64,000 nt of DNA, taken from positions 4,836,001 through 4,900,000 of the forward strand of contig NC_092006.1 in assembly GCF_044704955.1 (NCBI RefSeq), given 5' to 3'. Position 1 is the first letter of the stretch. Every line of letters begins with the position of its first letter. Below, in pieces: positions 628-37,349 of the stretch. Origin of the DNA: Pristiophorus japonicus. Lineage: Eukaryota. The translations under genes and the position numbers were made by a program. The notes below the pieces were generated by a model, which made no database searches, was not told the DNA's origin, and saw only the letters and a program-made list of their open reading frames with translations.

Positions 628-705
628 TCATATCCATGAGCTGTTCACTTTCCTTTCCTGTCGGACTGTTGGATCCGCCTTAAATGCCAGTTGGGCGTAA
701 AGAGT
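628..705 (-). CDS. Gene A exon 6: TLYAQLAFKADPTVRQERKVNSSWI* (ITIM/ITSM-like)
   Basis: Acceptor ttctgttttctctcatag; phase 0; homologous to 12831-12875 and 37314-37349. Confidence 0.85.
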   Translation of the reverse strand, partial: TLYAQLAFKADPTVRQERKVNSSWI

Positions 706-3700
706 CTATGAGAGAAAACAGAAACCATTATCGCGGCTCACATCATCACCATCGGAACGGAGTGACAGGAGGAGGCCATTCAGCCCCTCGAGCATGTTCC
801 CCCACTCAATAAGATAAGAACATAAGAAATAGGAGCAGGAGTCGGCCATTCGGCCCCTCGAGCCTGCTCCGCCACTTAATGAGATCATGGCCGATCTGAT
901 CATGGACTCAGCTCCACTCCCCTGCCTGCTCCCCATAACCTCTTATCGCCATCGTTCAAGAAACTGTCTATCTCTGTCTTAAATTTATTCAATGTCCCGG
1001 CTTCCACAGCTCTCTGAGGCAGCAAATTCCACAGATTCACAATCCTCTGAGAGAAGAAATTTCTCCTCATCTCAGTTTTAAATGGGCGGCCCCTTATTCT
1101 AAGATCGTGCCCCCTAGTTCTAGTCTCCCCCATCAGTGGAAACATCCTCTCTGCATCCACAGCTGATCCTGTATCTTAACTCACTCTACCCACCTTGGTT
1201 CCCTAACCCTTAATCCCCTTACCCAACAAGAGTCGATCCACCTCTGTCTTGACATTTCCAACTGACCCCTGACCTCGACAGCTTTTTGGGGGAGAGAGTT
1301 CCAGATTCCCGCTCCCCTTTGTGTGAAGAAGTGTTTCCTGTCATCACCCCTGAACGGTCTGGCTCGAAATTTAAGGTGACGTCCCCTTGGTCTGGACTCA
1401 CCCCGCCAAAGGAACTCATTTCTCTCTCTATCCACCTATCGAACACTTTAATCATCATAAACAACTCGATTAGATCGCCCTTTAATCTTCTATACTCCAG
1501 GGAATAAAAGCTTAGTCTGTGCGACCTGTCTTAATAATTTAACGCTTTTAGCCCCTGTATTATTAGTTAGGCCACAGCTGAAGTACTGCGTGCAGCTCTG
1601 GTCACCACATTACAGGAAAGATGTGATTGCACTGGAGAGGGTGCAGAGGAGATTTACCAGGATGTTGCACTGGAGAGGGTGCAGAGGAGATTTACCAGGA
1701 TGTTGCACTAGAGAGGGTGCACAGGAGATTTACCAGGATGTTGCACTAGAGAGGGTACAGAGGAGATTTACCAGGGTGTTGCACTGGAGAGGGTGCAGAG
1801 GAGATTTACCAGGATGTTGCACTGGAGAGGGTGCAGAGGAGATTTACCTGGATGTTGCACTGGAGAGGGTACAGAGGAGATTTACTAGGATGTTGCACTG
1901 GAGAAGGTGCAGAGGAGATTTACCAGGATGTTGCACTGGAGAGGGTGCAGAGGAGATTTACCAGGATGTTGCACTGGAGAGGGTGCAGAGGAGATTTACC
2001 AGGATGTTGCACTAGAGAGGGTGCAGAGGAGATTTACCAGGATGTTGCACTGGAGAGGGTACAGAGGAGATTTACCAGGATGTTGCACTAGAGAGAGTAC
2101 AGAGGAGATTTACCTGGATGTTGCACTGGAGAGGGTACAGAGGAGATTTACTAGGATGTTGCACTGGAGAGGGTGCAGAGGAGATTTACCAGGATGTTGC
2201 ACTAGAGAGGGTGCAGAGGAGATTTACCAGGATGTTGCACTGGAGAGGGTGCAGAGGAGATTTACCAGGATGTTGCACTAGAGAGGGTGCAGAGGAGATT
2301 TACCAGGATGTTGCACTAGAGAGGGTGCAGAGGAGATTTACCAGGATGTTGCACTAGAGAGAGTACCGAGGAGATTTACCAGGATGTTGCACTGGAGAGG
2401 GTACAGAGGAGATTTACTAGGATGTTACACTAGAGAGGGTGCAGAGGAGATTGACCAGGACATTGCACTAGAGAGGGTACAGAGGAGATTTACCAGAATG
2501 TTGCACTAGAGAGGGTACAGAGGAGATTTACCAGGATGTTGCATGGACTGGAGAATTTTAGCGATGAGGAAAGATTGGATAGGCTGGGGGTTGTTTTCTC
2601 TGCAACAGAGGAGGCTGAGGGGAGACCTGATTGAGGTGTATAAAATGATGAGGAGCCTGGATAGAGTGGATAGGACGGACCTGTTTCCCTTGGCAGAGGG
2701 GGTCAACAACCAGTGGGCATAGATTGAAAGTAATTGGGCGGAGGTTTAGAGGGGATTTGAGGGGAAATGTCTTCACCCAGAGGGTGGTGGGGGTCTGGGG
2801 CGGAACTCACTGCCTGAAAGGGTGGTAGAGGCAGAAACCCTCACCACATTTAAAAAGTACCTGGATGTGCACTTGAAGTGCCGTAACCTACAGGGCTACG
2901 GATTGAGAGCGGGAATGTGGGATTAGGCCGGGTGGCTCTTGGTCGGCCGGCGTGGGACACGATGAGCCGAATGGCCTCCTTCCGCGCTGTAAACTTCTGT
3001 GATTCTATGATTATTCTGTCAACTTGTAATTATATATAATCGGCAACTTAAAACATAGACCGATATTTTGTAATCTGTTTTTGCAGTTCTATCAAAATAA
3101 ACTGCTTTCCTGCGGAGTTCATTATGCAAAGTTTTATAGAATCGTTAACTATGAATCTTAACCGTTGGATTAAGGATGAGTGCAGGTAACTGCAAGGTGT
3201 CAAGCAAAGACAATTATTTTCACTCTCACCTCCTTATCTCTTGCACCTGGTCTGGAATCCGTGAATTTCTCATCGCTGGCCGTGTTACCTGAAATAAAGG
3301 GAATGCAATCTAAGTCTAAATGCACACACATTTCACGCTGACATGCACCGAGCCAAACGTTGTTTCCTTCAGGTAATTATCCAACTCCCTTTTGAAAGCC
3401 ACGTTTGAGTCTGCCTCTACCACCCTCTCAGGCAGTATGTTCCAGACCCTAACCACTCGCTGCTTAAAAATAGTTTTTCTTCATTTCGCCTTTGCTTCTT
3501 CTGCCTTAAATCTGTGTCCTCTGCTTCTCCACCCTTCTCCCAACGAGAACAGTTCCTCTCTGTCTGGACCCCTCACGATTTGGCCTTCCTGACTTGGGCA
3601 TAGGTCATTGGGTCACAATCCCGGAATTCCCTCCCTAACAGCACTGTTAGGAGCACCTTCACCACAGCGGACTGTCGAACTCGTTTGGCAGAACGTCTCA

Positions 3701-6700
3701 TCGCCAGAGCTGTCACACAAGCACCAACATGTAGCTTGATTGGCGGTGAGGAGGGCCTTACCCGTCAGAGCCTTCATGCACAGCCGGCGTCTCAGCAGCA
3801 CGGCACGGTGCCCCCGAGTTGGCTGCAGGGCGGACGAGACTGTCACCCATCTCCTTCAGGTTTGCCCCTTCGCAAGGCAGGTTTGGAAAGAGATGCAGTG
3901 GTTGCTGTCGAGGTTCATCCCGAGCAGCTCTGTAACACAGGACTCTGTGCTCTAGGGGCTGTTCCCAGGGACACACACCGAGACAGACATCACCTGCTGC
4001 TGGAGGGCCATCAACTTGGTCAAAGACGCTCTTTGGTCTTGCCGAGACTTGCTGGTCTTCCAGAGCAAGGAGATGTCCACGTCTGCGTGTTGCAGACTGG
4101 CGCAATCCACGATCCAGGATTACGTGCTGAGGGACGCACTTAAAATCGGTGCAGTCGCCGCAAAGGCACGGTGGGGAAGGGCCGCAGTTTAAAGCCCTTC
4201 TGACATGGTAAACCCAGGGGCAGGAATCAGTACAAAACTCCCCTCGGGCCGTACTTGTAACTTCTTTTTTGTGTCCATGGAGCACCATGATCTGTAAACA
4301 CCTGTGTAGTGTCATGTACAATGTAAGGTCTGTTTCGTAATGCACGTTGAAAAGAAAAATGTAAATGTACCGTCACCCATTCCGTGTACTGTATAGTGAC
4401 ACACGTAATGTAATTTGTCGAATGTACTACAAGGTATCCCGTATTGTACCGAATTGTACTTGAACTGAAAAGCAAAGAAATGTATCGAACGGAACTGCCG
4501 TCAGCACCCAAATGTAGTGTATGGGATTGCTGACCGCAGCTAAATGTACTGAACTGCTTTTGAATGTACTGTACAAATTTTTATACGAATAAAGTATATT
4601 TTGAAATTAAAAAAAATAACACAGTAACTGGATAGATTGGCCGCGCCTCTCGACCGCCGCTACCTGACTGCCGGGTCCTGCAGCTCCAGCTCGCCATCAC
4701 CGTCACCATCAGGAGGAGGAGAAGCGCCACCGAGCAAGTCACCAAAACCCATAAACTACAGTCGCTGTGCAGCGGGAGCCCTGTACACAAGGGGGAAAAA
4801 CAGCCTCTTAGTTAAAAGAAAATCCCGTAACCCAAGCCCTCTGCTTCTCGCAGGAGGTTCAGGGAGACCCAATACCATCTTCCAGGGTCCACGAGGGTTA
4901 GATACTCAATACCAAGTCTTCCCAACATCAATAGATAGAGATNNNNNNNNNNNNNNNNNNNNNNNNNNNNNNNNNNNNNNNNNNNNNNNNNNNNNNNNNN
5001 NNNNNNNNNNNNNNNNNNNNNNNNNNNNNNNNNNNNNNNNNNNNNNNNNNNNNNNNNNNNNNNNNNNNNNNNNNNNNNNNNNNNNNNNNNNNNNNNNNNN
5101 NNNNNNNNNNNNNNNNNNNNNNNNNNNNNNNNNNNNNNNNNNNNNNNNNNNNNNNNNNNNNNNNNNNNNNNNNNNNNNNNNNNNNNNNNNNNNNNNNNNN
5201 NNNNNNNNNNNNNNNNNNNNNNNNNNNNNNNNNNNNNNNNNNNNNNNNNNNNNNNNNNNNNNNNNNNNNNNNNNNNNNNGATACGTGTATAGATAGATAG
5301 ACCGACAGATTTATGGATAGACAGACAGATAGATGGATAGATACATCGATAAATCAATAGATAGACAGATAGACAGATATATTTATGGATAGACAGATAG
5401 ATAGATCGACAGACAGACACAGACAGACAGATAGAGGAGGTGCAACGAGACCTGGGTGTCATGGTACATCAGTCATTGAAAGTTGGCATGCAGCTACAGC
5501 AGGTGGTGAAGAAGGCAAATGGCATGTTGGCCTTCATAGCGAGGGGATTTGAGTATAGGAGCAGGGAGGTCTTACTGCAGTTGTACAGGGCCTTGGTGAG
5601 GCCTCACCTGGAATATTGTGTTCAGTTTTGGTCTCCTCATCTGAGGAAGGACATTCTTGCTATTGAGGGAATCAGCAAAGGTACACCAGACTGATTCCCG
5701 GGATGGCAGGACTGACATATCAAAAAAGGCTGGATCGACTAGGCTTATATTCACTGGAATTTAGAAGAATGAGAGGGGATCTCATAGAAACATATAAAAT
5801 TCTGACGGGACTGGACAGGTTAGATGCAGGAAGAATGTTCCCGATGTTGGGGAAGTCCAGAACCAGGGGTCACAGTCTCAGGATAAGGGGTAAGCCATTT
5901 AGGACCGAGATGAGGAGAAACTTCTTCACTCAGAGAATTGTGAACCTGTGGAATTCTCTACCACAGAAAGTTGTTGAGGCCAGTTCGTTGGATATATTCA
6001 AGAGGGAGTTAGATGTGGACCTTACGGCTAAAGGGATCAAGGGGTATGGAGAGAAAGCAGGAATGGGGTACTGAAGTTGAATGATCAGCCATGATCATAT
6101 TGAATGGTGGTGCAGGCTCGAAGGGCCGAATGGCCTGCTCCTGCACCTACTTTCTATGTTTCTATATTTGGACGGACGGATAGATGGTAAACAGACAGAT
6201 AGTTTACAGATAATACAACACTTGGTAAAGCAGTGGATCAGGATGAGGATAATTATAGGCTGCAGGAGAGCACAGACGGGTTGGTGAAATGGCCGTCAGC
6301 ACGGCCGGTGGGGTTCAAAGCGGGGAAGTGTTAAGTGTTTCAGTTTGGGAGGGGTAACATGGACAGACAATGTACTGTGAATGGCATCGAGCGAGGACGT
6401 GATCCACCGGAAATGGCAGTATATTATTCTCCAATTTGACCCATGGATCGCCCAGGAATATACCTGCTCTCCCAGCAGGTAGATATGACCTAGCAGGACA
6501 GAAGGACCTTATAATTGAGAAAGGTAAACATTGAGAGATCTGGGAGAGGTAAATCATTGAGATACTTACACACGAATTTGCAGAAAGGAAGAGAATTTGA
6601 ATGTATAACGTGACAGGGCTAACAATGATCTCTTACATCACCATTGAAGATATTAGTGAAGGAGAATAGTTACCGCTCAGCGATGAGATGCTTTCACTGA

Positions 6701-8375
6701 TGAAATTGTCGGTGGAATTGACCGGAACGGCGCAAGTGCAGACAGCGCCACTCCGCCAAGTTTCCGCCGAGACGCTGAGGTGACTCCCGACCGTGAGCGT
6801 CCCGTCCGGCTCGGTGGTCCCGGAGTCGCTCTGTCCCTCGGCGAGCCGTCCCGAAACAGTCCAGCGGACGGGAAGGGAATCGGGAGTCAGGCTTCTGACC
6901 AGACACAGCAGCGGGACCCTCGCCAGCGAGGGAATTTCGTCCTGCGGCGGAGTTAAGAGCTGTATTTCCGGAGACCCTGCCGAATTTGGGGAGGATTAAT
7001 ATTCGACGGAAATCGCTCGTTATTTACAACGAAATTTGTAAACGAATTCTTACCTGTAATGAGCAATTTCGAGCCGTTTCCGAATATAAGGTGCAATAGA
7101 CTAGATTTCTTAGCTGCGCAGTAATACACCCCTGAATCGTTCCCCTGGACCTCGTTCACAATCAGAGAGTAAATATTGAATTTGTCGTCAATTTGTCCGG
7201 AAAACCTCCCTTCAGGAATATTGTAGTTTCTCACAGTGTAAACTTTCTGGAGAGGTCCTCGGTTCTGCTGCTTATACCACTGCACAGCTCGAGATACCAA
7301 CTGACCAGTGTGACAATCCGCCTTGAAGGTACTGCCAACTGAGAGAGTCTGGACCGACGGACTCTGGGCGAAATAGTCCTGGGGGGCAATAACTGAGAGA
7401 AGAACATGGTCACCACGGGGTCTGTTACAAGAGGAATAAACACCGCTTCAGATCAAGAAACCCACAAAGCAGTGAACGGTGAGAGAGGCGCTCGTGTTCA
7501 AGGAGCCTCATTTCTAATTGAGTTCAATGCTGAGGGTTAACATTGAGCCAATAACAGGAGANNNNNNNNNNNNNNNNNNNNNNNNNNNNNNNNNNNNNNN
7601 NNNNNNNNNNNNNNNNNNNNNNNNNNNNNNNNNNNNNNNNNNNNNNNNNNNNNNNNNNNNNNNNNNNNNNNNNNNNNNNNNNNNNNNNNNNNNNNNNNNN
7701 NNNNNNNNNNNNNNNNNNNNNNNNGAGAAAGAGAAAGATAGAGAAAGAGAGAGAGAAAAAGAAAGAGAGAGAAAGAAAGATAGAGAAAAAGAGAGAGAAA
7801 GAAATAGAGAGAAAGAGAGAGAAACAGATAGAGAAAAAGAGAGAGAGAAAGAAAGATAAAGAGATAGAGAGAGGGAAAGAAAGAAAGAGTTGGATTTATA
7901 TAGCGCCTTTCGCAACCACTGGACTCAAAGTGCTTTACAGCCAATGAAGTACTTTTTGAAGTGTAGTCACTGTTGTAATGTGGGAAACACGGCGCACAGC
8001 AAGCTCCCACAAATAGCAATGTGATAATGACCCAGATCAGCTGTTTTCGAGATGCTGATTGAGGGATAAATATTGGCCCCAGGACACAGGGGAGAACTCC
8101 CCTGCTCTTCTTCGAAATAGTGGCCGTGGGATCTTTTACGTCCGCCTGAGAGACCAGACGGGGCCTCGGTTTAACGTCTCAGGCAATAGATGCAGAATAT
8201 TGACATTAGGTCTATTTCCCACCAGCCTGAGATATTGCACGATGCTAATATCAGTGAACGCAGCGCGTAATCTCCGACTCGGCTGATCTTACGCCGCAGT
8301 TCCGCCATGGATTACCAGCAAATTCGACTGACCTGGAAAGAGAAGGGCGAGCACGCAGGGAGCTAAGCGATGCAT
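628..8375 (-). CDS. Gene A: non-rearranging VJ-C1-TM-ITIM Ig-superfamily receptor, 6 coding exons, 312 aa
   Basis: Exons 8375-8333, 7392-7054, 6976-6674, 4780-4664, 3288-3230 and 705-628. All are GT-AG with phases 1,1,1,1,0. Total 939 nt, open from ATG to TGA. Exon sizes match paralogs B and C. Confidence 0.88.
755..1560 (-). mobile_element. Nested CR1 3' fragments (young copy 812-1160 inside an older one)
   Basis: [12 protein letters not shown] motifs; (TAAGAACA)n tail. Confidence 0.8.
1565..3012 (+). mobile_element. CR1 3' fragment containing an internal tandem array
   Basis: QLWSPHYRKDVIALERVQRRFTRML..FTQRVV; tail tctatgatt. Confidence 0.85.
1626..2545 (+). repeat. 38-bp minisatellite GATGTTGCACTGGAGAGGGTGCAGAGGAGATTTACCAG, about 24 copies
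   Basis: Direct tandem repetition of a CR1 ORF2 segment. Confidence 0.95.
3230..3288 (-). CDS. Gene A exon 5: 59-nt cytoplasmic exon (G)NTASDEKFTDSRPGARDKE
   Basis: Acceptor ccctttatttcag, donor gag|gtgaga; phase 1 to 0; same length and phase as gene C exon 35067-35125. Confidence 0.78.
3672..4617 (+). mobile_element. Tx1/L1-clade LINE 3' end
   Basis: CPRVGC..ETVTHLLQVC C-terminal zinc-knuckle-like motif, long 3' UTR, AATAAA at 4588, A-tract at 4609. Confidence 0.75.
4664..4780 (-). CDS. Gene A exon 4: stalk and TM (G)LPLHSDCSLWVLVTCSVALLLLLMVTVMASWSCRTRQS
   Basis: Acceptor tttttcccccttgtgtacag, donor cag|gtagcg; 117 nt; hydrophobic span followed by basic residues. Confidence 0.87.
4943..5279. 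other. Assembly gap (N run) inside a GATA/GACA microsatellite (to about 5435)
   Basis: Run of Ns flanked by (GATA/GACA)n. Confidence 0.98.
5436..6165 (+). mobile_element. CR1 3' fragment
   Basis: [27 protein letters not shown]. Confidence 0.9.
6674..6976 (-). CDS. Gene A exon 3: C1-type Ig domain ([55 protein letters not shown]..)
   Basis: 303 nt, phase 1/1. C1-set pattern: LxPP, LxCLV, PxxxxVxW, DG-x-x-T-x-x-S-x-L, W-x-SG-x-x-x-TC. Not shown in the ORF track in this frame. Confidence 0.92.
7054..7392 (-). CDS. Gene A exon 2: V domain with in-exon J motif (..KADC..VQWYKQ..GRFSG..DSGVYYCAAKKSSLLHLIFGNGSKLLIT)
   Basis: 339 nt; acceptor ttcttctctcag, donor acag|gtaaga; canonical Cys, Trp, DSGxYYC and FGxG. 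Confidence 0.93.
7562..7885. repeat. Assembly gap (7562-7724) and GA-rich microsatellite in gene A intron 1
   Basis: Ns followed by (GA/GAAA)n. Confidence 0.95.
7886..8180 (-). mobile_element. Deu-domain SINE (SacSINE1-like), 3' part
   Basis: Reverse complement of the 3' half of the SINE at 27400-28065. Confidence 0.75.
8333..8375 (-). CDS. Gene A exon 1: leader MHRLAPCVLALLFP
   Basis: ATG plus 43 nt, donor ccag|gtcagt; hydrophobic; same size as the B and C leaders. Confidence 0.82.
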
Positions 8376-12830: not shown

Positions 12831-12875
12831 TCAGAGTGTTGGCTCCGTGTTAAATGCCAGCTGGGCATAAAGAGT
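12831..12875 (-). CDS. Gene B terminal exon TLYAQLAFNTEPTL*
   Basis: Acceptor ttctgttttctctcacag, nearly identical to the gene A exon 6 acceptor and 5' end. Confidence 0.83.
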   Translation of the reverse strand, partial: TLYAQLAFNTEPTL

Positions 12876-15800
12876 CTGTGAGAGAAAACAGAAACAATTA
12901 CCACGGCCCACATCTTCAGCGTCGGAACAGTGGGACAGGAGAGGGCCATTCAGCCCCTCGAGCCTGTTCCCCCATTCAGTTTGATCATGGCTAATGTGTA
13001 TCTGAACTCCATCCGCCCGCCTTAAATACCCTCGCCCAACACCAATCTTTCATCGCAGTTTTGAACATTTCAATTGACCCTCAGCCTCAACAACTTTATG
13101 AGGGAGAGAGTTCCAGGTTCCCGCGGCCTTTTGTCTGAAGATGTGTTTCCTGACATCACCCCTGAACGGCCGGGCTCGAATTTTAAGGTCAAGCCCCCTT
13201 GTTCTGGACTCCCCAGACTCTCTCAAATTCTCTAATCATCTTAAATATCTCGATTACATCACCCTGTAATCTACACTCGAGGGAAAACAAGGCCAGTCTA
13301 AGAACATAAGAACATAAGATTTAGGAGCAGGAGTCAGCCATTCGGGCCCCTCGAGCCTGCTCCGCCATTCAATGAGATCACGGCTGACCTTCGACCTCAA
13401 CTCCACTTTCCTGCCCCATCTCCATATCCCCTGTTCCCCTAGACTCCGAAAATCTCTCGATCTCAGCCTTGAATATACTCAACGACTGAGCCTCCACAGC
13501 CCTCTGGGGCAGAGAATTCCAAAGATTCACCACCCTCTGAGTGAAGAAATTCCTCCTCATCTCAGTCCTAAATGGCCGAGCCCTTATCCTGAGACTTTGT
13601 GACCCCTGGTTCTAGACTCCCCAGCCCTGATATGATTCAATGAGATCACATCTCATTCTTCTAAACTCCAGAGAGTATGGGCCCAGTCGACTCAACAGGT
13701 ATATGCAACCTGTCCCATAATATAACCCTTTTAGCATGTTGGGACATTTTATTGGTTGTTGATAGCGCAGGTATAATTGTAGTGAATCGGCAATCTGTGG
13801 TTATTTATAATTACTGACTTAAAATATCCAAATATAGATATTTGAATTTACTTTTAAATAAAAGGTGAATTTGTTTATTCGTTCCTGGGATGTGGGCATG
13901 GCTGGCAAGGCCGGCATTTATTGCCCATCCCTAATTGCCCCTTGAGAAGGTGGTGGTGAGCCGCCTTCTTGAACCACAGAGGGTGGTTAAGCACCATTCA
14001 AATCGCTGTGGGTCTGGAGTCACGTATCAACCAGACCGGGTAAGGGGCAGTAGATTTCCGTGATTTCCTTCCCTGAAACATTCGGCCCTTCGAGCCTGCA
14101 CCACCATTCAATATGATCATGGCTGATCATGCAACTTCAGTACCCCTTTCCTGCTTTCTCTCCATACCCCTTGATCCCTTTAGCCAAAAGGGCCACATCT
14201 AACTCCCTTTTGAATATATCCAACGAACTGGCCTCAACAACTTTCTGTGGTAGAGAATTCCACAGGTTCACAATTCTCTGAGTGAAGAAGTTTCTCCTCA
14301 TCTCGGTCCTAAATGGCTTACCCCTTATCCTGAGACTGTGACCCCTGGTTCTGGACTTCCTCAACATTGGGAACATTCTTCCTGCATCTAGCCTGTCCAA
14401 TCCCGTCAGAATTTTATATGTTTCGATGAGATTCCCCTCTCATTCTTCTAAATTCCAGTGAATATAAGCCTAGTCGATCCAGTCTTTCTTCATATGTCAG
14501 TCCTGCCATCCCGGGAATCAGTCTGGTGAACCTTCGCTGCACTCCCTCAATAGCAAGAATGTCCTTCCTCAGATTAGGAGACCAAAACTGCACACAATAC
14601 TCAAGGTGTGGCCTCACTGAGGCCCTGTAGGAGGGCAATGGCACAAAGCCAGGTCGCTGATTGCAGTGCGGGCAGGCACAGCAGGAGGGGCGACGGAGCA
14701 GCAAGACTCCGTAGAGGGAAGTGATTGAGGCCCAAGAGAGGCATGAATCTGGGGCCCAGAAGAGGCGAGGGCCCAGCCCACACTGTGCGATATGTGCGCG
14801 CACTAGGCCCGTGCAGCAGAGCTGGTCTCCAGTCGTCCTGGTTCACCCTTGCCCCTGGACCAAGACCTCACTCTGTCAAGCCCATGTGGTGGCTGGTGTG
14901 CAACGGTCACCCCACGTTAAAAAAACCCACCCACAGGGGCCTTCCACCCTTCAGGATGTAGTTCGGGATCTAGAATTTTAGGTTCTTTATTGAAACACTG
15001 TGAACTCATCCCTTTTTTGGCATGGAATCAAGCCATACTCACTTCGAGGGACTGCCTATAATGATGATACAACTGCAGTAAGACCTCCCTGTTCCTATAC
15101 TCAAATCCCCTATACTGTCCTATACTCAAAGACATTAGTGACACCAGATGGGTTTTTACAATCTGGTAGTTTTATGGTCACCGTTACTTTTTAATTCCAC
15201 ATTTATTTGATTAATTGAATTTAAACTTCTCACCTACCATGGTGGGATTGGAATTCGGGTCCCCGGGATTAATAGTCCAGGCGCCTGGATTACTAGCCCG
15301 CTGACATAACCACTATGCTACCGTTCTGTCGTGTTAAGCGAAGACAGCTCTTTTCCTATCTACCGCCTGGAACAGCGAACCACCCTGCAAGCGGATAAAT
15401 TGGGAGTGCGGAGGAGTTTGAAGCACCTTGCGACCATCCCTACCTGACTGCCGCTCCGGACAGCCGCCACAGACACCATCAGGAGCAGGAGAAGCGCCGC
15501 CAACAAATTCAGGACCAACCGCAATCCGCAGGCGCTCTGTGACGGAGACACTGCAAGAAAAGAGCTTTTTTAAAGAAAAAGGACGTTTCTGCAAAGAGTT
15601 AAACAAGTGCAGCCACCGAGCAAATCTGCTTGTGGAATTTCACACAAAACATTTTGCATAGTTCCCCAGCGAGCAGATATCTGAGAGGCCCCTGCTTACC
15701 GATAACTTTGCAATTAACAAGGACTGCGATGTTGCGATAGACAGGCAGACACGGGCAGACACCTGAGAGATAGACAGATAAGAACACAAGAAATAGGAGC

Positions 15801-18800
15801 AGGAGTCGGCCATTTGGCTCCACAGCTGGTCTGGTCTCGGGCTCAGCTCTACTTCCCTGTCTGATAGATAGACAGACAGACATAGAGATAGAGATAGAGA
15901 GAGAGTTAGAGAGTTAGAGAGAGAGAGGGAGATAGAGAGAGAGAGAGAGGGAGATAGATAGATAGAGAGTTAGAGAGAGAGAGATAGATAGATAGAGAGT
16001 TAGAGATAGAGAGTTAGAGTTAGAGATAGAGAGTTAGAGATAGAGATAGAGAGTTAGAGATAGAGATAGAGAGTTAGAGATAGAGATAGAGAGTTAGAGA
16101 TAGAGAGTTAGAGATAGAGAGTTAGAGATAGAGAGTTAGAGAGATAGATAGATAGAGTTAGAGATAGAGAGTTAGAGATAGAGAGTTAGAGAGATAGATC
16201 GATTGGATAGGCTGGGTTGTTTTCTTTGGAACAGAGGAGACTGAGGGGCGACCTTATTGAGGTGTATAAAATTATGAGGGGCCTGGATAGAGTGGATAGG
16301 ACAGACCTGTTTCCCTTGGCAGAGGGGTCAACAACCAGGGGTCACAGATTGAAAGTAATTGGGAGGAGGTTTAGAGGGGATTTGAGGGGAAATGTCTTCA
16401 CCCAGAGGGTGGCGGGGGTCTGGGGTGGAACTCACTGCCTGAAAGGGTGGTAGAGGCAGAAACCCTCACCACATTTAAAAAGCACCTGGATGTGCGCTTG
16501 AAGTTCCGTAACCTACAGGGCTACGGACTGAGAGCTGGAAAGTGGGATTAGGCTGGGTGGCTCTTTGTCGGCCGGCGCAGACATGATGGGCCGAATGACC
16601 TCCTTCCATGCTGTAAATTTCTATGATTCTAGGATAGACATCGCGATAGAACACAGCACAGTGGAAATGTAATCACATTTTCGACTTTTAAGCAGGGAGG
16701 TACCTTACTCCGAACATTTATTCCCTAGCTAGACAGATAGACTTCAAAATTCAGCAAGGTAGACACTGAAACATTGAGAGATATGTGATAGGGAGATCAT
16801 GGTATAATTATACACGGAGACGCAGAAAAGGACGTAAGAATATAAGAACATAAGAAATAGGAGCAGGAGTCGGCCATTCGGCCCCTCGAGCCTGCTCCGC
16901 CATTCAATACGATCCTGGCTGATCCGATCATGGACTCAGCTCCACTTCCCCGCCCACTCCCCATAACCCTTCACTTCCTTATCGCTCAAAAATCTGTCTA
17001 TCTCCACCTTATATATATTCAATGTCCCAGCCTCCACAGCTCTCTGGAGCCGAGAATTCCACAGATTTACAACCCTCTGAGAGAAGAAATTCCTCCTCAT
17101 CTCAGTTTTAAATGGGCGGCCCCTTATTCTGAGACTATGCCCCCTAGTTCTAGTCTCCCCCATCAGTGGAAACATCCTCTCTGCATCCACCTTGTCGAGC
17201 CCCCTCATTATCTTATACGTTTCGATAAGATCACCTCTCATTCTTCTGAACTCCAATGAGTAGAGACCCAACCTGCTCAACCTTACCTAAGAAGTCAACC
17301 CCCTCATCTCCGAAATCAACCAAGTGAACCTTCTCTGAACTGCCTCCAGTGCAAGTATATCCTTCCTTAAATACGGAGACCAAAACTGCACGCAGTACTC
17401 CAGGTGTGGCCTCACCAATACCCTCTCCAGTTGTAGCAGGACTTCTCTGCTTTTATACTCTATCCCCCTTGCAATAAAGGCCAAGATTCCATTCCAGTTG
17501 AGGTCTAAGATTGGCCGTGATCTTATTGAATGGCAGAGCAGGCTCGAGGGGCCGAATGGCCTCCTCCTGCTCCTAATTCGTATATTCTAAAATAGAGGTT
17601 AGACTGAACAGTAACCGACATATCGTAGAGGGTTGTTGAGGCCAGTCTGTTAGATATATTAAAGAGGAAGCTAGATATGGCCCTTACAGCTAAAGGGATC
17701 AAGGGGTATGGAGAGAAAGCAGGAATGGGGTACTGAGGTGAATGATCAGCCATGATCATATTGAATGGTGGTGCAGGCTCGAAGGGCCGAATGGCCTACT
17801 CCTGCACATATTTTCTATGTTTCTATGTAAGGACAGTGGCTAAATACAGCGCTATGTATTCTGAATTCCCTGTCATTCTTCTGAACTCCAGTCCTTCAAT
17901 ATACAAAAAGTTGCGAAGAAGTGAGACTCACATCACCATTGAAGATATTAGTGAAGGGGACACCGGCCACAGTTACCTCCCGGAGATGCGACGCTTTCAC
18001 TCAGGAGATCCCCGGTGGCGTTGATCGGAACGGTGCAAGTGCAGACGGCGCCGCTGCGCCAGGTTTCGGCCGAGACGCTCAGGACGCTTCTGGCGGTATA
18101 GCTCCCGTCCGGCTCCAGCCTGCCGGGCTCGCTCCGTCCCTCGGCGGCCCGTCCCGCAACCAGCCAGCGGATGGGGAAGGAGTCCGGAGCAGCGCCCCGC
18201 ACCAGACACATCAAGGGCACTCTCTCCAGCCGGGGAATCTCAGCCGGCGGTGGCGTTAAGAGGAAGAGGACCGGGGGGCCCGCTAGATGGAAGAGAAATT
18301 GGAATTAACCAGGCGCACAAGGTAGGTTTAAATTGGTGTCTCGACGCACAATTGGATGGACGAGTGGGATTACCTGTGATCACCAGCGTGGTGCCAGTCC
18401 CGAATATCAGGGACCGATTCCTGGCGTTTGGAGCAGCGCAGTAATACCGCCCAGAATCGCTCCTCTGGACGTTGTCAATGACCAGCGAATAATTCCCCGA
18501 TTGCTCGCATACCTCGCCGGAAAATCTTCCCCCGGGCCTCACGAACCGTCCGGTTTTGTAAACAATCCGCATGCCCTCTCGGTGCCAGTGTGTGTACCAG
18601 TAAACGATGCCCGGGGCCAGCCTCCCGGTCTGGCATTGCAGTTTGACCAGGCTCGCGACATCGGCCGTTAGCAGCGCCGGAAATTGGCTCAAGACCGCCT
18701 GAGACACGACAGCTGAGACAAGGTTGCGGGGGGGGGGGACACAAAAATTAAAAAAAACACAATATTAACAACAGGTTATAGGCCCCCGAGTCACCCTGGA

Positions 18801-21800: not shown

Positions 21801-22901
21801 TCTCTCCAAAACCCTTCTCCTTATTAATTCTATCCAAAACCCTTCTCCTTATTAATTCTCTCCAAAACCCTTCTCCTTATTAATTCTCTCCAAAACCCTT
21901 CTCATTATTAATTCTCTCCAAAACCCTTCTCCTTATTAATTCTCTCCAAAACCCTTCTCCTTATTAATTCGATCCAAAACCCTCCTCCTTATTAATTCTC
22001 TCCAAAACCCTTCTCCTTATTAATTCTCTCCAAGACCCTTCTCCTTATTAATTCTCTCCAAGACCCTTCTCCTTATTAATTCTCTCCAAAACCCTTCTCC
22101 TCATTAATTCTCTCCAAAACCCTTCTCCTTATTAATTCTATCCAAAACCCTTGTCCTTATTAATTCTCTCCAAAATCCTCCTCCTTATTAATTCTCTCCA
22201 AAACCCTTCTCATTATTAATTCTCTCCAAAACCCTTATCCTTATTAATTCTATCCAAAATCCTCCTCCTTATTAATTCTCTCCAAAACCCTCCTCCTTAT
22301 TAATTCTCTCCAAAACCCTTCTCCTTCTTAATTCTCTCCAAAACCCTTCTCCTTCCTAATTCTATCCAAAACCCTTCTCCTTATTAATTCTATTCAAAAC
22401 CCTCCTCCTTATTAATTCTCTCCAAAACCCTTCTCCTTATTAATTCTCTCCAAGACCCTTCTCCTTATTAATTCTCTCCAAGACCCTTCTCCTTATTAAT
22501 TCTCTCCAAAACCCTTCTCCTTATTAATTCTCTCCAAAACCCTTCTCCTTATTAATTCTATCCAAAAACCTTCCCATTATTAATTCTCTCCAAAACCCTT
22601 CTCCTCATTAATTCTATCCAAAACCCTTCTCCTTATTAATTCTCTCCAAAACCCTTTTCCTTATTAATTCTCTCAAAAACCCTTCTCCTTATTAATTCTC
22701 TCCAAAACCCTTTTCCTTATTAATTCTCTCAAAAACCCTTCTCCTTATTAATTCTCTCCAAAACCCTTTTCCTTATTAATTCGCTCCAAAACCCTTCCCT
22801 TGGTTGACTCTCTCCTAACCCCTTCCCCACTCTGGCAAAACATCGAAGGCTATCTCACCTTGGAAGAGATGGAACAGCACACAGAGACCACAGAAGCTCA
22901 T
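12831..22901 (-). CDS. Gene B: non-rearranging VJ-C1-TM-ITIM receptor, 5 coding exons, 279 aa
   Basis: Exons 22901-22859, 18712-18374, 18282-17977, 15550-15444 and 12875-12831. Total 840 nt, open frame. Confidence 0.85.
12935..14628 (-). mobile_element. CR1 fragments (12935-13735, 14078-14628) and a LINE/SINE 3' end (13870-14075) in the last intron of gene B
   Basis: RRNFFTQR motifs; CR1 tails. Confidence 0.7.
14629..15068 (+). mobile_element. Probable non-autonomous element with an RTE-type 3' tail
   Basis: Ends cgagggactgcctataatgatgat, like the RTE 3' end at 9380-9405; the body is non-coding. Confidence 0.45.
15444..15550 (-). CDS. Gene B stalk and TM exon (V)SPSQSACGLRLVLNLLAALLLLLMVSVAAVRSGSQ
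   Basis: Acceptor ctcttttcttgcag, donor cag|gtaggg; 107 nt ending in phase 0; homologous to gene A exon 4 minus 10 nt. Confidence 0.85.
15860..16200. repeat. Compound microsatellite (AGAGAT/AGAGTT)n
   Basis: Direct observation. Confidence 0.95.
16200..17828. mobile_element. CR1 fragments in gene B intron 3 (16200-16630 plus, 16835-17490 minus, 17628-17828 plus)
   Basis: CR1 RT C-terminal ORFs and tails. Confidence 0.8.
17977..18282 (-). CDS. Gene B C1-type Ig domain exon
   Basis: 306 nt; (A)[54 protein letters not shown]..; ag| and |gtaact ends. Confidence 0.93.
18374..18712 (-). CDS. Gene B VJ exon
   Basis: 339 nt; [41 protein letters not shown]; donor acag|gtaatc. Confidence 0.94.
19705..22800. 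repeat. 28-bp minisatellite CCTTCTCCTTATTAATTCTCTCCAAAAC in gene B intron 1, interrupted by a CR1
   Basis: Period 28; about 68 copies in 20893-22800 plus about 3 before the insertion. Confidence 0.95.
19811..20892 (+). mobile_element. Young 5'-truncated CR1 (uninterrupted 312-aa RT C-terminal ORF)
   Basis: GVPQGSVLGP..FADD..; (TTCTATGT)n tail; same subfamily as 38404-41256 and 51587-55130. Confidence 0.95.
22859..22901 (-). CDS. Gene B leader exon [14 protein letters not shown]
   Basis: ATG plus 43 nt, donor caag|gtgaga; splicing gives [26 protein letters not shown]. Confidence 0.83.
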
Positions 22902-22984
22902 TATCCCTGCCCCAGGAGGGTTGAACTCTGATGCTGGGACTGGCAGCTCAGGGAGGAATGCTTGTCAGCAGGTCGGTGCGAGGC

Positions 22985-23145
22985 TGGTGTGAAATGCCGA
23001 GCCAATTGTGGTAAGCACGCACTGTGTTTATTAATAAATGTACGATTTGGGCTGCAAAATAGTGCCGAAGCAGAAAGCTCTGTGTGGGTTTCCTGTTTTT
23101 ACAGGTAAAGAGATGAAACACACACACACCATCTGTGTTACAGAA
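22985..23145 (-). promoter_or_regulatory. Gene B proximal promoter
   Basis: AACAGGAAACCCACA at 23083-23097 (minus strand), TTTATTAATAAA, GCATTTCAC. Confidence 0.5.
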
Positions 23146-23599
23146 GGCACCTCGTCTCTACGCATGTTAGTTTGACCACACTTGGAGCACTGCGCACGGT
23201 TCTGGTCTCCATCTTTCAAAAGAATATAGAGGCACTGGAGCGGGTGTAAACAAGATTCAGAAAGATGACACCAGAACTGAGAGAGGTTATACTGATCAGG
23301 AAAGGCTGGACAGACTGGGGCACTTTTCTCCAGAAAATTACATAGTATGCACATCACAAAAACAGACCATTCAGCCCCACCGCTCCGTGCCGGGGTTTAT
23401 GCTCCACACCAGCCCCTCCCACCTCTCTCCATCTCACCCCATTCGCCATATCCTTCTATTCCTTTCTCCCTCATGTGTTTATCCAGCCTCCCCTTAAATA
23501 CATCGATACTATTCGCCTCAACCCCTCCCTATGGCAGCGAGTTCCACATCTCAGCGCTCTCTGGGTCAAGAAGTTTCTCCTGAATTCCCCATTGGGTTT

Positions 23600-29654: not shown

Positions 29655-29815
29655 TCTGTAACACAGATGGTGTGTGTGTGTTTTATCTCTTTACCTGTAA
29701 AAACAGGAAACCCACACAGAGCTTTCTGCCTTGGCACTATTTTGCAGCCCAAATCGTACATTTATTAATAAACACAGTGCGTGCTTACCACAATTGGCTC
29801 GGCATTTCACACCAG
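29655..29815 (+). promoter_or_regulatory. Gene C proximal promoter
   Basis: AACAGGAAACCCACA at 29702-29716, TTTATTAATAAA at 29761, GCATTTCAC at 29802. Confidence 0.5.
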
Positions 29816-29897: not shown

Positions 29898-29940
29898 ATG
29901 AGCTTCTGTGGCCTCTGTGTGCTGTTCCATCTCTTCCAAG
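29898..29940 (+). CDS. Gene C leader exon [14 protein letters not shown]
   Basis: atgagcttc...ttccaag|gtgaga, 43 nt. Confidence 0.84.
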
Positions 29941-32900: not shown

Positions 32901-35900
32901 AATTTCCGGCGCTGCTAACGGCCGATGTCGGGAGCCTGGTCAAACTGCAATGCCAGTCCGGGAGGCTGGCCCCGGGCATCGTTTACTGGTACACACACTG
33001 GCCCCGAGAGGGCATGCGGCTCGTTTACAAAACCGGACGGTTCGTGACGCCCGGGGGAAGATTTTCCGGCGAGGTATGCAAGCAATCGGGGAATTATTCG
33101 CTGGTCATTGACAATGTCCAGAGGAACGATTCTGGGCGGTATTACTGCGCTGCTCCAAACGCCGGGAATCGGACCCTGATATTCGGGACTGGCACCACGC
33201 TGGTGATCACAGGTAATCCCACACGCCCATCCAATTGTGCGTCGAGACACCAATTCAAACCTGCCTTGTGCGCCTGGTTAATTCCAATTTCCCTTCCATC
33301 TAGCGGGCCCCCCGGTCCTCTTCCTCTTAACGCCGCCGCCGGCTGAGATTCCCCGGCTGGAGAGGGTGCCCTTGATGTGTCTGGTGCGGGGCGCTGCTCC
33401 TGACTCCTCCCCCATCCGCTGGCTGGTTGCGGGACGGGCCGCCGAGGGACGGAGCGAGCCCGGGACGCTGGAGCCGGACGGGAGCTATACCGCCAGAAGC
33501 GTCCTGAGCGTCTCGGCCGAAACCTGGCGCAGCGGCGCCGTCTGCACTTGCACCGTTCCGATCAACGCCACCGGGGATCTCCTGAGTGAAAGCGTCGCGT
33601 CTCCGGGAGGTAACTGGAGCTACTGGCGGTTTGCCAAATAGTTAGTGATAATAATGTTCATTATAGTATTGCTGGGATGTGAGGGTTTTTTTTGCACGAG
33701 AGATTGTGTAGAATGGGCCTATGTTCTCTGGAGTTTCGTATAAGATGATGAGGGGGCTTGACAAGCTGGATGCAGAGAGGATGTTTCCACTGATGGGGGA
33801 GTCTAGAACTAGAGGGCATAATCTCAGAATAAGGGGCCGCCCATTTAAAACTGAGATGAGGAGGAATTTCTTCTCTGAGGGTTGTAAATCTGTGGAATTC
33901 GCTGCCTCAGAGAGCTGTGGAAGCCGGGACATTGAGTAAATTTACGATAGAAATAGACAGTTTCTTAACTGATAAGTAATTAAGGGGTTATGGGGAGCGG
34001 GCAGGGAAGTGGAGCTGAGTCCATGATCGGATCAGCCATGATCGTATTGAATGGCGGAGCAGGCTCGAGGGGCCGAATGGCCGACTCCTGCTCCTATTTC
34101 TTATGTTCTTATGGAGTTTCGAAGAAGGAGAGGTGATCTCATTGAAACGTACAAGACTCTGAGGGGGATTGACAGGGTGGATGCAGGGAGGGTGTTTCCC
34201 CCCGGGGCTGGGGAGTCTAGAACCAGGGGTCACACAGTCTCAGGGTAAGGGGTTGGCCATTTAAGACTAAGATGGGGAGAACGTTCTTCACTTGCGATTT
34301 ACTACGTTACAGGCGCTATATAAATATAAGTTGTTGTATATTGGGAGCACTAGTATGGAAAAGTAGTATTTTATAAATGACATGAGTTTGGAAAACAGCG
34401 AGACAGAGAGAGACCATATACACAAACCTGTAAATGTGGGAAGGGCAGGTTGGCGAGCTGGTTAAACTGGCTTACGGGGTACTTGAATTTATATAAGGAG
34501 ATATTGGAACAGTTGACCAAAAGCTTGGTCAAAGAGGGAGGTTTTACAGAAGGAGGAGAGGCGGAGAGGTTTAGGGAGAGAGTTCCAGAGCTTGGGGCCC
34601 CAGGCAGCTGAAGGCACGGCCACCAATGGTGGAGCGATAGAAATCGGGGGGAATGCTCAAGAGGCCAGGATTGGAAGAGCGCAGAGATCACAGCCACTTA
34701 CGTTGAGACAGTTCATAGTTCGTCACCATGTCTTTGATGATTCGGGCCAAAAACCAGCTTCAAACCCTCAGCGGACGAGGTTTCAGAATTTGACTGAATT
34801 ATTTTGTGTTTCGCTCATTTCACAAGAGTTGTCTTTCTGCCGTTCAGAGCCCCTTCACAGCTCGACCTGCCGCTTCGCGCTTTATGCCAGCCTGGCGATG
34901 GCTCCTCTTGTGATGGGGTTGATCGGTGTCGCGGTGGCACGGCGTGGCAAGACTCGCCAACCAGGTACTGCCCGTCTGAGCCAAACCCTCAATTTCGCCT
35001 TTAGCTGAACCTCTCCCTTTGGCGTGCCGGCCTGGACATTAACGCCAGTCATCTTCTTAAACCTAGAGAGTGCAGCCACGACTGACCGAGGTACCGCTTC
35101 AAGAATAAAGAAAGCAGAAGAGGAGGTAGGTGCCACAAAGATGGGAGATGTTATTTTCATTAAAGAGCGGGGGGCGGGACTAATTGGATCATGCTTTCAA
35201 AGAGCCGACACAAGCTCGAAGGGCCAACTAGCCTCCTTCTGTGCTGTAAGATTCTATACTGGTGTCAAGTGTTTCATTGGTGTCCATGGACATGTCCGTT
35301 GTCAGTAACTTCAATGAGACATTCACATTAATACACTTGTGCCTCTCTCAGAAACAACCCAAAGCTATTCACCTGCAATGAATTGCATAAGAACATAAGA
35401 ACATAAGAATTAGGAACAGGAGTAGGCCATCTAGCCCCTCAAGCCTGCTCCACCATTCAACAAGACCATGGCTGATCTGGACGTGGACTCAGCTCCACTT
35501 ACCCGCCCGCTCCCGTAACCCTTAATTCCCTTATTGGTTAAAAATCTATCTATCTGTGACTTGAATGCATTCAATGAGCTAGCCTCAACTGCTTCCTTGG
35601 GCAGAGAATTCCACAGATTCACAACCCTCTGGGAGAAGAAATTCCTTCTCAACTCGGTTTTAAATTGGCTCCCCCGTATTTTGAGGCTGTGCCCCCTAGT
35701 TCTAGTCTCCCCGACCAGTGGAAACAAACTCTCTGCCTCTATCTTGTCTATCCCTTTCATTATTTTAAATGTTTCTAGAAGATCACCCCTCATCCTTCTG
35801 AACTCCAACGAGTAAAGACCCAGTCTACTCAATCTATCATCATAAGGTCACCCCCTCATCTCCGGAATCAGCCGAGTGAATCGTCTCTGTACCCCCTCCA

Positions 35901-37349
35901 AAGCCAGTATATCCTTCCTTAAGTAAGGTGACCAAAACTGCACGCAGTACTACAGGTGCGGCCTCACCAATACCCTATACAGTTGCAGAAGGACCTCCCT
36001 GCTTTTGTACTCCATCCCTCTCGCAATGAAGGCCAACATTCCATTCGCCTTCCTGATTACCTACTGCACCTGCAAACTAACTTTTTGGGATTCATGCACA
36101 AGGACCCCCAGGTCCCTCTGCACCGCAGCATGTTGTAATTTCTCCCCATTCAAATAATATTCCCTTTTACTGTTTTTCTTCCCAAGGTGGATGACCTCAC
36201 ACTTTCCGACATTGTATTCCATCTGCCAAACCTTAGCCCATTCGCTTAACCTATCTAAATCTCTTTGCAACAGTGATGTCTTGCATTTAAATAGCGCCTT
36301 TGATGTCCTAAGGCGCTTCACAGGAGCATTAGTCAGACAAAAATTAAAGGTCGAACCCCACGAGGAGAGATTACGACAGGTGAGCAAAGGCTTGGCCGAG
36401 GAGGGAGGTTTTAAGGAGGAGAGAGGGGCGGAGAGGTTTAGGGAGGGAGTTCCAGAGCTTGGGGCCCAGGCAGCTGAAGGCACGGCCACCGATGGTGGAG
36501 CGATTATAATCAGGGATGGTCAAGAGGGCAGAATTGGAGGAGCAGTAGGAGATAGGGAGGGATGTAGGTGCTGGAGGAGAGTACAGAGATAAGGAGGGGT
36601 GTATGGGCTGGAGGAGATTACAGAGATAGAGAGGGGTGTAGGGGCTGGAGCAGGTTACAGAGATAGGGAGGGGTGTAGGGGTTGGAGGGGGTTACAGAGA
36701 TAGGGAGGGGTGTAGGGGTTGGAGGGGGTTACAGAGATAGGGAGGGGTGTAGGGGCTAAAGGAGGTCACAGAGATAGGGAGGGATGTAGGGGCTGGAGGA
36801 GGTTACAGAGTTAGGGAGGGATGTAGAGGCTGGAGGAGGTTGCAGAGATAGGGAGGGGTGTAGGGCTGGAGGAGAGGCAGTACTGAGGGAGCGCCGCACT
36901 GTCGGAGGAGCAGTACTGAGGGAACACCGCACTGTCGGAGGGACCGTCTTTCGGCTGAGACGTTAAACCGAGGCACCATCTGCCCTCTCGGTTGTAAAAG
37001 ATCTATTGGAAGAAGAGCAGGGGGAGTTCTCCCCGGTGTCCTGGGGCCAATATTTATCCCTCAACCAACATCACTAAAAACAGATGATCCGGGTCATTAT
37101 CACATTGCTGTGTGTGGGAGCTTGCTGTGCGCAAATTGAGCTGCCGCGTTTCCCACAATACAACAGTGACTGCACTTCAAAAAGTACTTCATTGGCTGTA
37201 AGGCGCTTTGGGACGACCGGTGGTGGTGAAGGGCGCTATAGAAATGCACGTCTATTTCTTTTCAATATAGTTGAGCAGGAAGGTAACGGTTTTCTCGTGT
37301 TGTTCCTTCACAGACTATGTACGCGCACCTGGCATTCGCTGTGGATTAG
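29898..37349 (+). CDS. Gene C: non-rearranging VJ-C1-TM-ITIM receptor, 6 coding exons, 299 aa
   Basis: Exons 29898-29940, 32874-33212, 33304-33609, 34848-34964, 35067-35125 and 37314-37349. Total 900 nt, open frame; AATAAA at 37562. Confidence 0.9.
30001..31880. repeat. 28-bp minisatellite (reverse complement of 19705-22800) in gene C intron 1, about 67 copies
   Basis: (GGTTTTGGAKAGAATTAATAAGGAGAAG)n running into a CR1 remnant at 31880-32220. Confidence 0.95.
32874..33212 (+). CDS. Gene C VJ exon
   Basis: 339 nt; [28 protein letters not shown]; cag| and |gtaatc ends. Confidence 0.94.
33304..33609 (+). CDS. Gene C C1-type Ig domain exon
   Basis: 306 nt; 7 nt differences from the gene B C1 exon by hand count. 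Confidence 0.93.
33735..34295 (+). mobile_element. Nested CR1 3' fragments in gene C intron 3
   Basis: [17 protein letters not shown]..; tail tcttatgttcttatg. Confidence 0.85.
34490..34690 (-). mobile_element. L2-like LINE 3' fragment (also at 36270-36545 and 48930-49180)
   Basis: Minus strand [15 protein letters not shown]-type C-terminus found at three sites. Confidence 0.6.
34848..34964 (+). CDS. Gene C stalk and TM exon (E)[38 protein letters not shown]
   Basis: Acceptor ctttctgccgttcag, donor ccag|gtactg; 117 nt as in gene A; shares PLHS..C and TRQ with gene A. Confidence 0.87.
35067..35125 (+). CDS. Gene C 59-nt cytoplasmic exon (E)[19 protein letters not shown]
   Basis: Acceptor tcttcttaaacctag, donor gag|gtaggt; phase 1 to 0. 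Confidence 0.8.
35386..36270 (-). mobile_element. CR1 3' fragment
   Basis: [32 protein letters not shown]; (TAAGAACA)n. Confidence 0.9.
36545..36875. repeat. 37-bp minisatellite GGGAGGGGTGTAGGGGYTGGAGGRGGTTACAGAGATA, about 9 copies
   Basis: Period 37 read directly; continuous with the L2-like fragment. Confidence 0.85.
36876..37262 (+). mobile_element. Deu-domain SINE, 5'-truncated, ending about 50 nt before the gene C terminal exon
   Basis: Matches 27700-28065. Confidence 0.8.
37314..37349 (+). CDS. Gene C terminal exon [11 protein letters not shown]
   Basis: Acceptor tgttgttccttcacag; TxYxxLAF as in A and B. Confidence 0.85.
   Translation, partial: TMYAHLAFAVD

What the first reader, a model, noticed from the sequence alone, without database searches (positions are those of the whole stretch)
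6674..7392. Germline-joined VJ with a fixed CDR3-equivalent length and a miniature V-C intron
Seen: the VJ exon is 339 nt in all three genes. A versus B aligns without gaps at about 39% aa identity (hand count), while C1 is about 62%. The CDR3-equivalent has the same length but different residues (AAKKSSLLHLIF vs AAPNARNRSLIF). The VJ-C1 intron is only 77 nt (A) or 91 nt (B, C), and I see no RSS or separate D/J segments. Established: cartilaginous fish do have germline-joined Ig clusters. Inference: an identical junction length over deep divergence argues for a single ancestral joined exon rather than independent RAG joins. The tiny intron leaves no room for J arrays or an intronic enhancer.
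Basis: partly seen in the sequence, partly recalled or inferred. Interest (0 to 1): 0.72.

Follow-up and report, generated by a model that had tools for sequence, protein, structure and literature searches.

The report
Never-split shark antigen-receptor-like genes
These shark genes encode receptors built like one chain of a T-cell receptor but with the variable exon already whole in the genome; they are not pre-joined antibody light chains but members of an old, likely inhibitory receptor family shared with turtles, birds, lungfish and chimaera, which bears on what receptors looked like before gene shuffling arose.

Summary
The VJ exon is 339 nt, the VJ-C1 introns are 77/91/91 nt, A versus B is 39% (V) and 62% (C1), and a strict scan finds no RSS in the window. 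These are not germline-joined Ig clusters. Genes A and C are six-exon type I membrane receptors: leader, VJ, C1, stalk Cys plus uncharged TM, and a TxYAxL tail. They lie in a tandem array of four-gene units (A, B, C, D) on a contig carrying APH1A and PRPF3, away from the Ig, TCR and MHC loci. Their C1 forms one clade with chimaera, coelacanth, lungfish, sturgeon, amphibian, reptile and bird proteins; grouping with IgL is rejected (AU p=0.00016). The family is probably PRARP (recalled; paper not held). The loop length is fixed only within a lineage: partner D has 8 residues and homologs 7, 8, 9 or 11. B and C are 97% identical, so three genes give one comparison. The tiny intron is the better clue: true joined IgL here have 2-5 kb, and a bird model suggests 84 nt. 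Never-split ancestry is likely; one very ancient RAG join is not excluded.

The parts
8333..8375 (-). Gene A leader exon (43 nt, split leader, phase 1)
   Evidence: Best ATG..GT leader-profile hit upstream of A; model open; no RNA support
7054..7392 (-). Gene A unsplit VJ exon, 339 nt, V-set, 11-residue CDR3-equivalent, FGNG motif
6977..7053 (-). Gene A VJ-C1 intron, 77 nt, GT-AG
   Evidence: 77 nt in 12 of 12 A copies
6674..6976 (-). Gene A C1-set exon, 303 nt, with the family C-x-C motif on strand F
4664..4780 (-). Gene A stalk cysteine plus uncharged transmembrane exon
3230..3288 (-). Gene A cytoplasmic linker exon, 59 nt
628..705 (-). Gene A last coding exon with TLYAQL (ITIM/ITSM-like)
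22859..22901 (-). Gene B leader exon
   Evidence: 97.7% identical to the C leader
18374..18712 (-). Gene B VJ exon, 339 nt
18283..18373 (-). Gene B VJ-C1 intron, 91 nt
17977..18282 (-). Gene B C1 exon, 306 nt
15443..15550 (-). Gene B stalk/TM exon, 108 nt
12831..12875 (-). Gene B A-like last exon (TLYAQL); no linker exon found that would put it in frame
29898..29940 (+). Gene C leader exon
   Evidence: the six-exon model equals database protein P0014
32874..33212 (+). Gene C VJ exon, 339 nt
33213..33303 (+). Gene C VJ-C1 intron, 91 nt
33304..33609 (+). Gene C C1 exon
34848..34964 (+). Gene C stalk/TM exon
35067..35125 (+). Gene C linker exon, after a 102-nt intron
37314..37349 (+). Gene C last coding exon with TMYAHL

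Best explanation
The exon is the single, unsplit VJ exon of a VJ-C1-transmembrane receptor gene, likely inhibitory, from a family found from chimaera to birds (probably PRARP), and it was likely never cut by RAG rather than re-joined. The chain is predicted to sit at the cell surface as a disulfide-linked dimer through its stalk cysteine, perhaps with the D-type chain, and to signal through its single TxYAxL motif. Variety comes from gene duplication and point mutation, so loop length changes only at rare indels and is fixed within each lineage. The roughly 80-100-nt VJ-C1 intron is likely an old family trait.
For: SHOWN. Six-exon open models of A and C; the C model is identical to database protein P0014. 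48 of 48 VJ exons on C32 match full length (36, 12). No strict RSS in the window versus 7 of 7 controls. C1 tree: 34 family rows form one side of a 97/96 branch against 15 Ig/UrIg2-like C domains; holding them with IgL is rejected, p-AU 0.00016. V tree: outside the 95/95 Ig V clade. Homologs are named from sharks, rays, chimaera, coelacanth, lungfish, sturgeon, paddlefish, caecilian, newt, frog, lizards, turtles, alligators and birds. Among 99 homologs with a TM (of 138 surveyed), 98 have a stalk Cys, 83 a tail YxxL/V/I and 1 a charged TM core. No octamer within 400 bp of the three leaders, against one about 550-590 nt before the V-exon 3' end in 8 of 9 joined IgL. J-C distance is 2.0-5.3 kb in 9 joined IgL and 3,185 nt in the UrIg2-like gene. 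APH1A and PRPF3 lie on C32; class I genes cluster on C19 and C3, none on C32. INFERRED. Bird model P0204 carries a 28-residue read-through between J and C1, which would be an 84-nt intron. Signalling and dimer state are inferred from motifs.
Against: The V tree does not recover the family as one group (0 of 200 bootstrap trees); TCR V lies among open forks and the bootstrap had not settled. No TCR C, SIRP, NKp30 or MHC-linked UrIg sequences were in the trees. No chicken protein named PRARP was among the listed hits, and the PRARP paper was not held. There are no expression data. The bird intron rests on one gene model. Several copies are damaged: stops in an A V exon, a B V exon and a B C1 exon, and in-frame C1 deletions in a B and a C copy. 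B lacks a linker exon that I could find.
Confidence: 0.68

Rival explanations
1. The family began as one RAG-made germline join of a TCR-like V and J in the common ancestor of jawed vertebrates. It later shrank its J-C intron and gained an inhibitory tail.
For: RAG joins do occur in shark germ cells (PMC2193156, passages). The V tree leaves TCR V unresolved among family lineages. The fold matches TCR chains best among PDB representatives, Z 15-17. It has a split leader, a stalk Cys and a J motif, as antigen receptors do.
Against: C1 is a clade of its own apart from the Ig C domains tested. Only 1 of 99 TMs has a charged core, unlike TCR chains (TCR TM charge recalled). The J motif is degenerate in the D type (LRNGS). 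No split relative was found among 48 exons or in 160 kb of flank and inter-unit DNA.
Confidence: 0.18
2. These are SIRP-like or otherwise convergent paired innate receptors whose VJ-C1 layout says little about antigen-receptor origin.
For: V-C1-TM-ITIM layout and birth-and-death copies. One horn-shark D-type model (P0039) has an Arg at the TM start and a short tail without a Tyr motif. An earlier AI note (e1-9216550) reads a similar cluster this way.
Against: One C1 and one Tyr motif, whereas SIRP-alpha has two C1 and four tyrosines (recalled). The best 60 PDB sequence hits of the C1 exon are Ig constant domains and UrIg2. SIRP was not in the trees, so this is not excluded.
Confidence: 0.11
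3. Germline-joined Ig light-chain clusters of a shark lineage.
For: Database auto-names call the homologs Ig light or heavy chain-like. Foldseek ranks Fab light chains first. 3 of 9 true joined IgL here also have 11-residue loops.
Against: TM and tail exons; AU test p=0.00016; no octamer; intron 20-70 times shorter; different contig; orthologs in tetrapods.
Confidence: 0.02

Closest known systems
PRARP1/PRARP2 (Fu et al. 2019, J Immunol 202:1992; title and a one-line mention seen in PMC10751288; content recalled, paper not held)
   Same: Non-rearranging VJ-joined pair; V-C1 outside birds; ITIM/ITSM-like tail; disulfide dimers; present in bony fish, amphibians, reptiles and birds (all recalled). 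My homolog set covers those groups and has two or more sub-lineages.
   Different: Here in sharks, rays and chimaera, which I do not recall being reported, and expanded to 28 distinct genes (48 as assembled). Orthology to the named chicken genes was not tested directly.
UrIg and UrIg2 (PMC12227049, parts 1-4 of 8 read; PMC10751288, passages)
   Same: Single-exon VJ, split leader, C1-set domains, non-rearranging, elasmobranch.
   Different: UrIg has 3 C1 domains and is secreted and MHC-linked. UrIg2 has 9 or more C1 domains and lies in the IgH/TCR complex. The UrIg2-like gene here is on C23 with a 3.2-kb J-C intron and falls outside the family clade. This family has one C1, a TM and a Tyr tail, and persists in bony vertebrates.
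Germline-joined shark IgL (lambda, NS4; PMC2193156, passages)
   Same: Unsplit VJ exon followed by one C1 exon; no RSS.
   Different: Joined IgL end after C, have an octamer, 2-5-kb J-C spacing and variable loops; separate clades in both trees.
TCR chains
   Same: Leader-VJ-C1-stalk Cys-TM order; best VIA-align matches.
   Different: No rearrangement, uncharged TM, own Tyr-motif tail.
SIRP, NITR, NKp30 (recalled)
   Same: Germline V domains with a J-like strand; inhibitory or activating tails.
   Different: SIRP has two C1 domains, NITR an I-type second domain, NKp30 a V domain only. None was tested in a tree.

Membership tests
Germline-joined IgL | C domain falls in the IgL C clade | tested here: not met
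   Family clade 97/96 and 98/98; AU p=0.00016
Germline-joined IgL | V domain falls in the Ig V clade | tested here: not met
   Ig V clade 95/95 excludes A, C and D (bootstrap not fully settled)
Germline-joined IgL | Coding ends after C, no TM exon | tested here: not met
   TM and tail exons present
Germline-joined IgL | Octamer promoter | tested here: not met
   0 of 3 within 400 bp of the leaders; 8 of 9 joined IgL controls
PRARP | Single unsplit VJ exon with J-like strand, no RSS | tested here: met
   J motif degenerate in D
PRARP | V-C1-TM with ITIM/ITSM-like tail (feature recalled) | tested here: met
PRARP | Orthologs in bony fish, amphibians, reptiles and birds (feature recalled) | tested here: met
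PRARP | Sequence orthology to the named chicken PRARP1/2 | not testable with these tools
   No protein named PRARP among listed hits; paper not held
PRARP | Conserved genomic neighbourhood | tested here: inconclusive
   APH1A at C32:6.90 Mb and PRPF3 at 2.77 Mb flank the array. One lizard homolog model carries the APH1A name. The published neighbourhood was not seen.
PRARP | Surface expression on B and T cells; disulfide homo- or heterodimer | not testable with these tools
   Stalk Cys invariant in 38 of 38 aligned chains; no expression or binding data
UrIg/UrIg2 | Three or more C1 domains; MHC or IgH/TCR linkage | tested here: not met
   One C1; C32 rather than C19 or C23
SIRP | V plus two C1 domains, four tail tyrosines (recalled) | tested here: not met
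   One C1 and one Tyr motif
SIRP | Phylogenetic affinity of V and C1 | not tested
   No SIRP sequence in the trees

The most novel reading that the evidence does not exclude
A living, pan-gnathostome relic of the pre-RAG receptor: two unsplit VJ-C1-TM chain types (A/C-type and D-type, kept side by side from sharks to reptiles) that pair like TCR alpha/beta. It keeps an ~80-100-nt VJ-C1 intron over more than 400 million years, sits on the human-1q21-type paralogon rather than the MHC or IgH/TCR chromosome, and builds a germline repertoire under diversifying selection (D V exon: 21 amino-acid-changing and 0 silent changes).
Probability: 0.25. Interest if true: 0.8.

Novelty: new variant of a known kind. 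Interest (0 to 1): 0.5.

Why it matters
The gene that the RAG transposon invaded is a long-standing question, and current candidates (UrIg, UrIg2) are described as shark-only and have several C domains (PMC12227049). This family has the minimal VJ-C1-TM layout and is present in chimaera, sharks and most bony-vertebrate groups, so it is at least as old as living jawed vertebrates. It can be tested in chicken, turtle or frog. In practice, databases mislabel these proteins as Ig or TCR chains, which can inflate counts of germline-joined shark Ig. The specific 'fixed CDR3 length' clue is ordinary; the short intron and the family's age are the informative parts.

Tried and rejected
RNA evidence: no RNA holder was listed for 6600-7450, so splicing, expression and junction diversity are untested. 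The C-type/D-type pairing prediction gave no verdict; pairing remains open. Papers not held: PRARP, Ohta 2019, UrIg 2023, one review by DOI. Searches for PRARP, 'nonrearranging IgSF genes' and VJ/C1/ITIM/cartilaginous-fish term sets found one immunological mention of PRARP (PMC10751288) and no description of shark members; subscription journals are not covered. The PMC10751288 supplement has 0 hits for PRARP, aph1a or VJC. B's linker exon was not found in the window or in four other B regions, of which three showed the last exon and only one was matched at the TM anchor. No extra family or IgL-like exon was found in 16 flank and inter-unit stretches, 160 kb. No excess of amino-acid changes in the V or C1 exons of A, B or C, or in D's C1 (P 0.37-0.91). 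Two of 11 IgL control loci gave no parsable joined VJ; the 5- and 6-residue loops may be regex or pseudogene artefacts. Rows dropped before the trees: near-duplicates and mis-cut domains (11 for C1, 11 for V), plus two proteins whose V motif was not parsed. No SIRP chain among the top 50-60 rows, which does not exclude it.
Full report
Observation. Gene A has a 339-nt VJ exon at 7054-7392 (-), a 77-nt GT-AG intron and a 303-nt C1 exon. B and C have 339-nt VJ exons and 91-nt introns. A vs B is 44/112 in V without gaps and 62/100 in C1. Pfam calls the domains V-set and C1-set. A strict RSS scan finds nothing in 64 kb but finds an RSS just 3' of V in 7 of 7 split IgL/TCR control loci. Absence of RSS does not separate 'never split' from 're-joined', because the three joined IgL controls also have none.

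Gene anatomy. Database homologs led to further exons. A and C are six-exon genes: split leader, VJ, C1, a stalk-cysteine/uncharged-TM exon, a 59-nt linker and a last exon with TLYAQL or TMYAHL. The model of C is identical to database protein P0014, listed as Pristiophorus japonicus. B is a mosaic. No linker exon was found for B, so its tyrosine motif may be out of frame.

The array. The window is C32:4,836,001-4,900,000. Searches of the own genome gave 36 A/B/C-type VJ exons and 12 of a fourth type, D, between 4.71 and 5.99 Mb, all matching full length. Each unit reads D(+), A(-), B(-), C(+); D lies tail to tail with A, about 6 kb beyond its last exon. All 36 A/B/C exons are 339 nt. Introns are 77 nt in 12 of 12 A, 91 nt in 12 of 12 B and 91 nt in 10 of 12 C as scored (the other two show the same acceptor at that distance). 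The 7 of 12 D copies fetched have 315-nt exons, 97-nt introns and 8-residue loops. Five units recur exactly 559,609 bp away with 0 differences in 49,950 bases. This is likely a false duplication or a very recent one, leaving 7 distinct units and 28 genes. Some copies carry stops or deletions.

Controls from the same genome. Of 11 IgL loci on C8, 9 gave a joined VJ. Their loops are 11, 11, 11, 9, 9, 8, 8, 6 and 5 residues, J lies 2.0-5.3 kb from C, and 8 of 9 have a nearby octamer. The window genes have no octamer within 400 bp of the leader. The UrIg2-like gene on C23 has a 3,185-nt J-C intron. Short introns are not limited to VJ-C1: C's TM-linker intron is 102 nt.

Family. Protein searches found the family in many sharks and rays, turtles, alligators, lizards, birds and a frog. 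The representative search and name look-ups added chimaera, coelacanth, lungfish, sturgeon, paddlefish, caecilian, newt and ostrich. Loop length was parsed in 137 of 164 proteins: 11 in 66, 9 in 41, 8 in 24, 7 in 5 and 6 in 1. Length is a lineage mark, not a family constant. Of 99 homologs with a TM among 138 surveyed, 98 have a stalk Cys, 83 a tail YxxL/V/I and 1 a charged TM core. One bird model reads through 28 residues between J and C1, starting like a donor and ending like an acceptor; this would be an 84-nt intron (inference from one model).

Trees. In the C1 tree, 34 family rows are one side of a 97/96 branch against 15 Ig and UrIg2-like domains. With 29 rows the branch is 98/98, and forcing the elasmobranch A/C-type with IgL is rejected (p-AU 0.00016). 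In the V tree the genes lie outside the Ig V clade (95/95), but the family is not recovered as one group and TCR V is unresolved among it. V of A groups with catshark, skate and ray proteins (97/93) apart from C, whereas C1 of A groups with C (100/92). The A/C V split is therefore likely older than the shark-ray split, with later homogenisation of C1. That would explain the 39% versus 62% gap (inference). TCR C, SIRP and NKp30 were not in the trees.

Position and fold. APH1A (6.90 Mb) and PRPF3 (2.77 Mb) flank the array on C32; both are human 1q21 genes (recalled). Class I hits cluster on C19 and C3, with none on C32; Ig and TCR-type hits lie on C8, C18 and C23. The AlphaFold model of P0014 (mean pLDDT 83) has two Ig domains and a TM helix. 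It matches Fab light chains by Foldseek and TCR chains by VIA-align at 15-31% identity.

Mechanism. Shown: unsplit exons, membrane-receptor layout, family age. Inferred: a surface dimer through the stalk cysteine, inhibitory signalling through TxYAxL, and diversification by duplication. Among 7 D copies the V exon has 21 non-synonymous and 0 synonymous segregating changes against 5.7 expected (P=0.00085, one of 8 tests), 6 of them in the CDR3-equivalent; the other seven tests show no excess. This suggests germline diversifying selection on D, from few and non-independent copies.

Literature. PMC12227049 (parts 1-4 of 8 read, plus term finds) describes UrIg and UrIg2, which differ in domain number and location. 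PMC10751288 (passages and supplement search) names PRARP once. PMC2193156 (passages) shows RAG joins in shark germ cells. PMC2192082 held only references. The PRARP, Ohta 2019 and UrIg 2023 papers were not held, so their content is recalled. Eight library searches found no account of shark members, which does not cover subscription journals. Earlier AI notes on other shark genomes reach similar readings; they are leads, not support.

Verdict. A real feature, correctly measured but misfiled. It is a cartilaginous-fish expansion of an old non-rearranging VJ-C1-TM receptor family, probably PRARP. Never-split ancestry is the best reading (0.68); one join in the jawed-vertebrate ancestor is the main rival (0.18). 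Interest 0.5.

Noticed in passing
G000:C32:4823032-4830330 (L037, L038), about 6 kb beyond window position 628: Fourth gene D: 315-nt VJ exon with degenerate J motif, 97-nt intron, TM and TFYASL tail; its V exon shows 21 non-synonymous and 0 synonymous changes among 7 copies.
   Followed up: yes
G000:C32, about 4.81-5.38 Mb versus 5.38-5.94 Mb: Five units repeat at an exact offset of 559,609 bp with no difference in 49,950 sampled bases; probable assembly false duplication.
   Followed up: partly
window 17970-23520 versus 29280-33616: B and C are head-to-head inverted duplicates (92-98%) from promoter to C1. Each leader intron holds a 28-bp tandem array of about 68 copies (20892-22825, 29998-31879). 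B's 3' end is A-like.
   Followed up: yes
window 12876-15442: B has no detectable linker exon between the TM and last exons, so its tail may lack the tyrosine motif (decoy or decaying copy).
   Followed up: partly
L062/L063 (G000:C23:5.50-5.51 Mb): Single-exon VJ plus C1 gene that looks like UrIg2 (label by position and layout, not confirmed), 13-residue loop, 3,185-nt intron.
   Followed up: partly
L061 (G000:C23:66.128 Mb): Germline-joined IgH VDJ exon with an open frame and a 9-residue CDR3.
   Followed up: no
G000:C3:316.6-319.3 Mb: Nine near-identical class I-like hits covering alpha1 and alpha2 in one open frame, away from the C19 class I cluster.
   Followed up: no
P0039 (horn shark D-type model): Arg at the start of the TM and a short tail without a tyrosine motif; possible activating counterpart.
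   Followed up: no
window 1627-2547, 43400-45169, 48445-48910: Minisatellites: a 38-bp unit (24 copies) in A's last intron and a 33-bp unit (54 and 14 copies).
   Followed up: no
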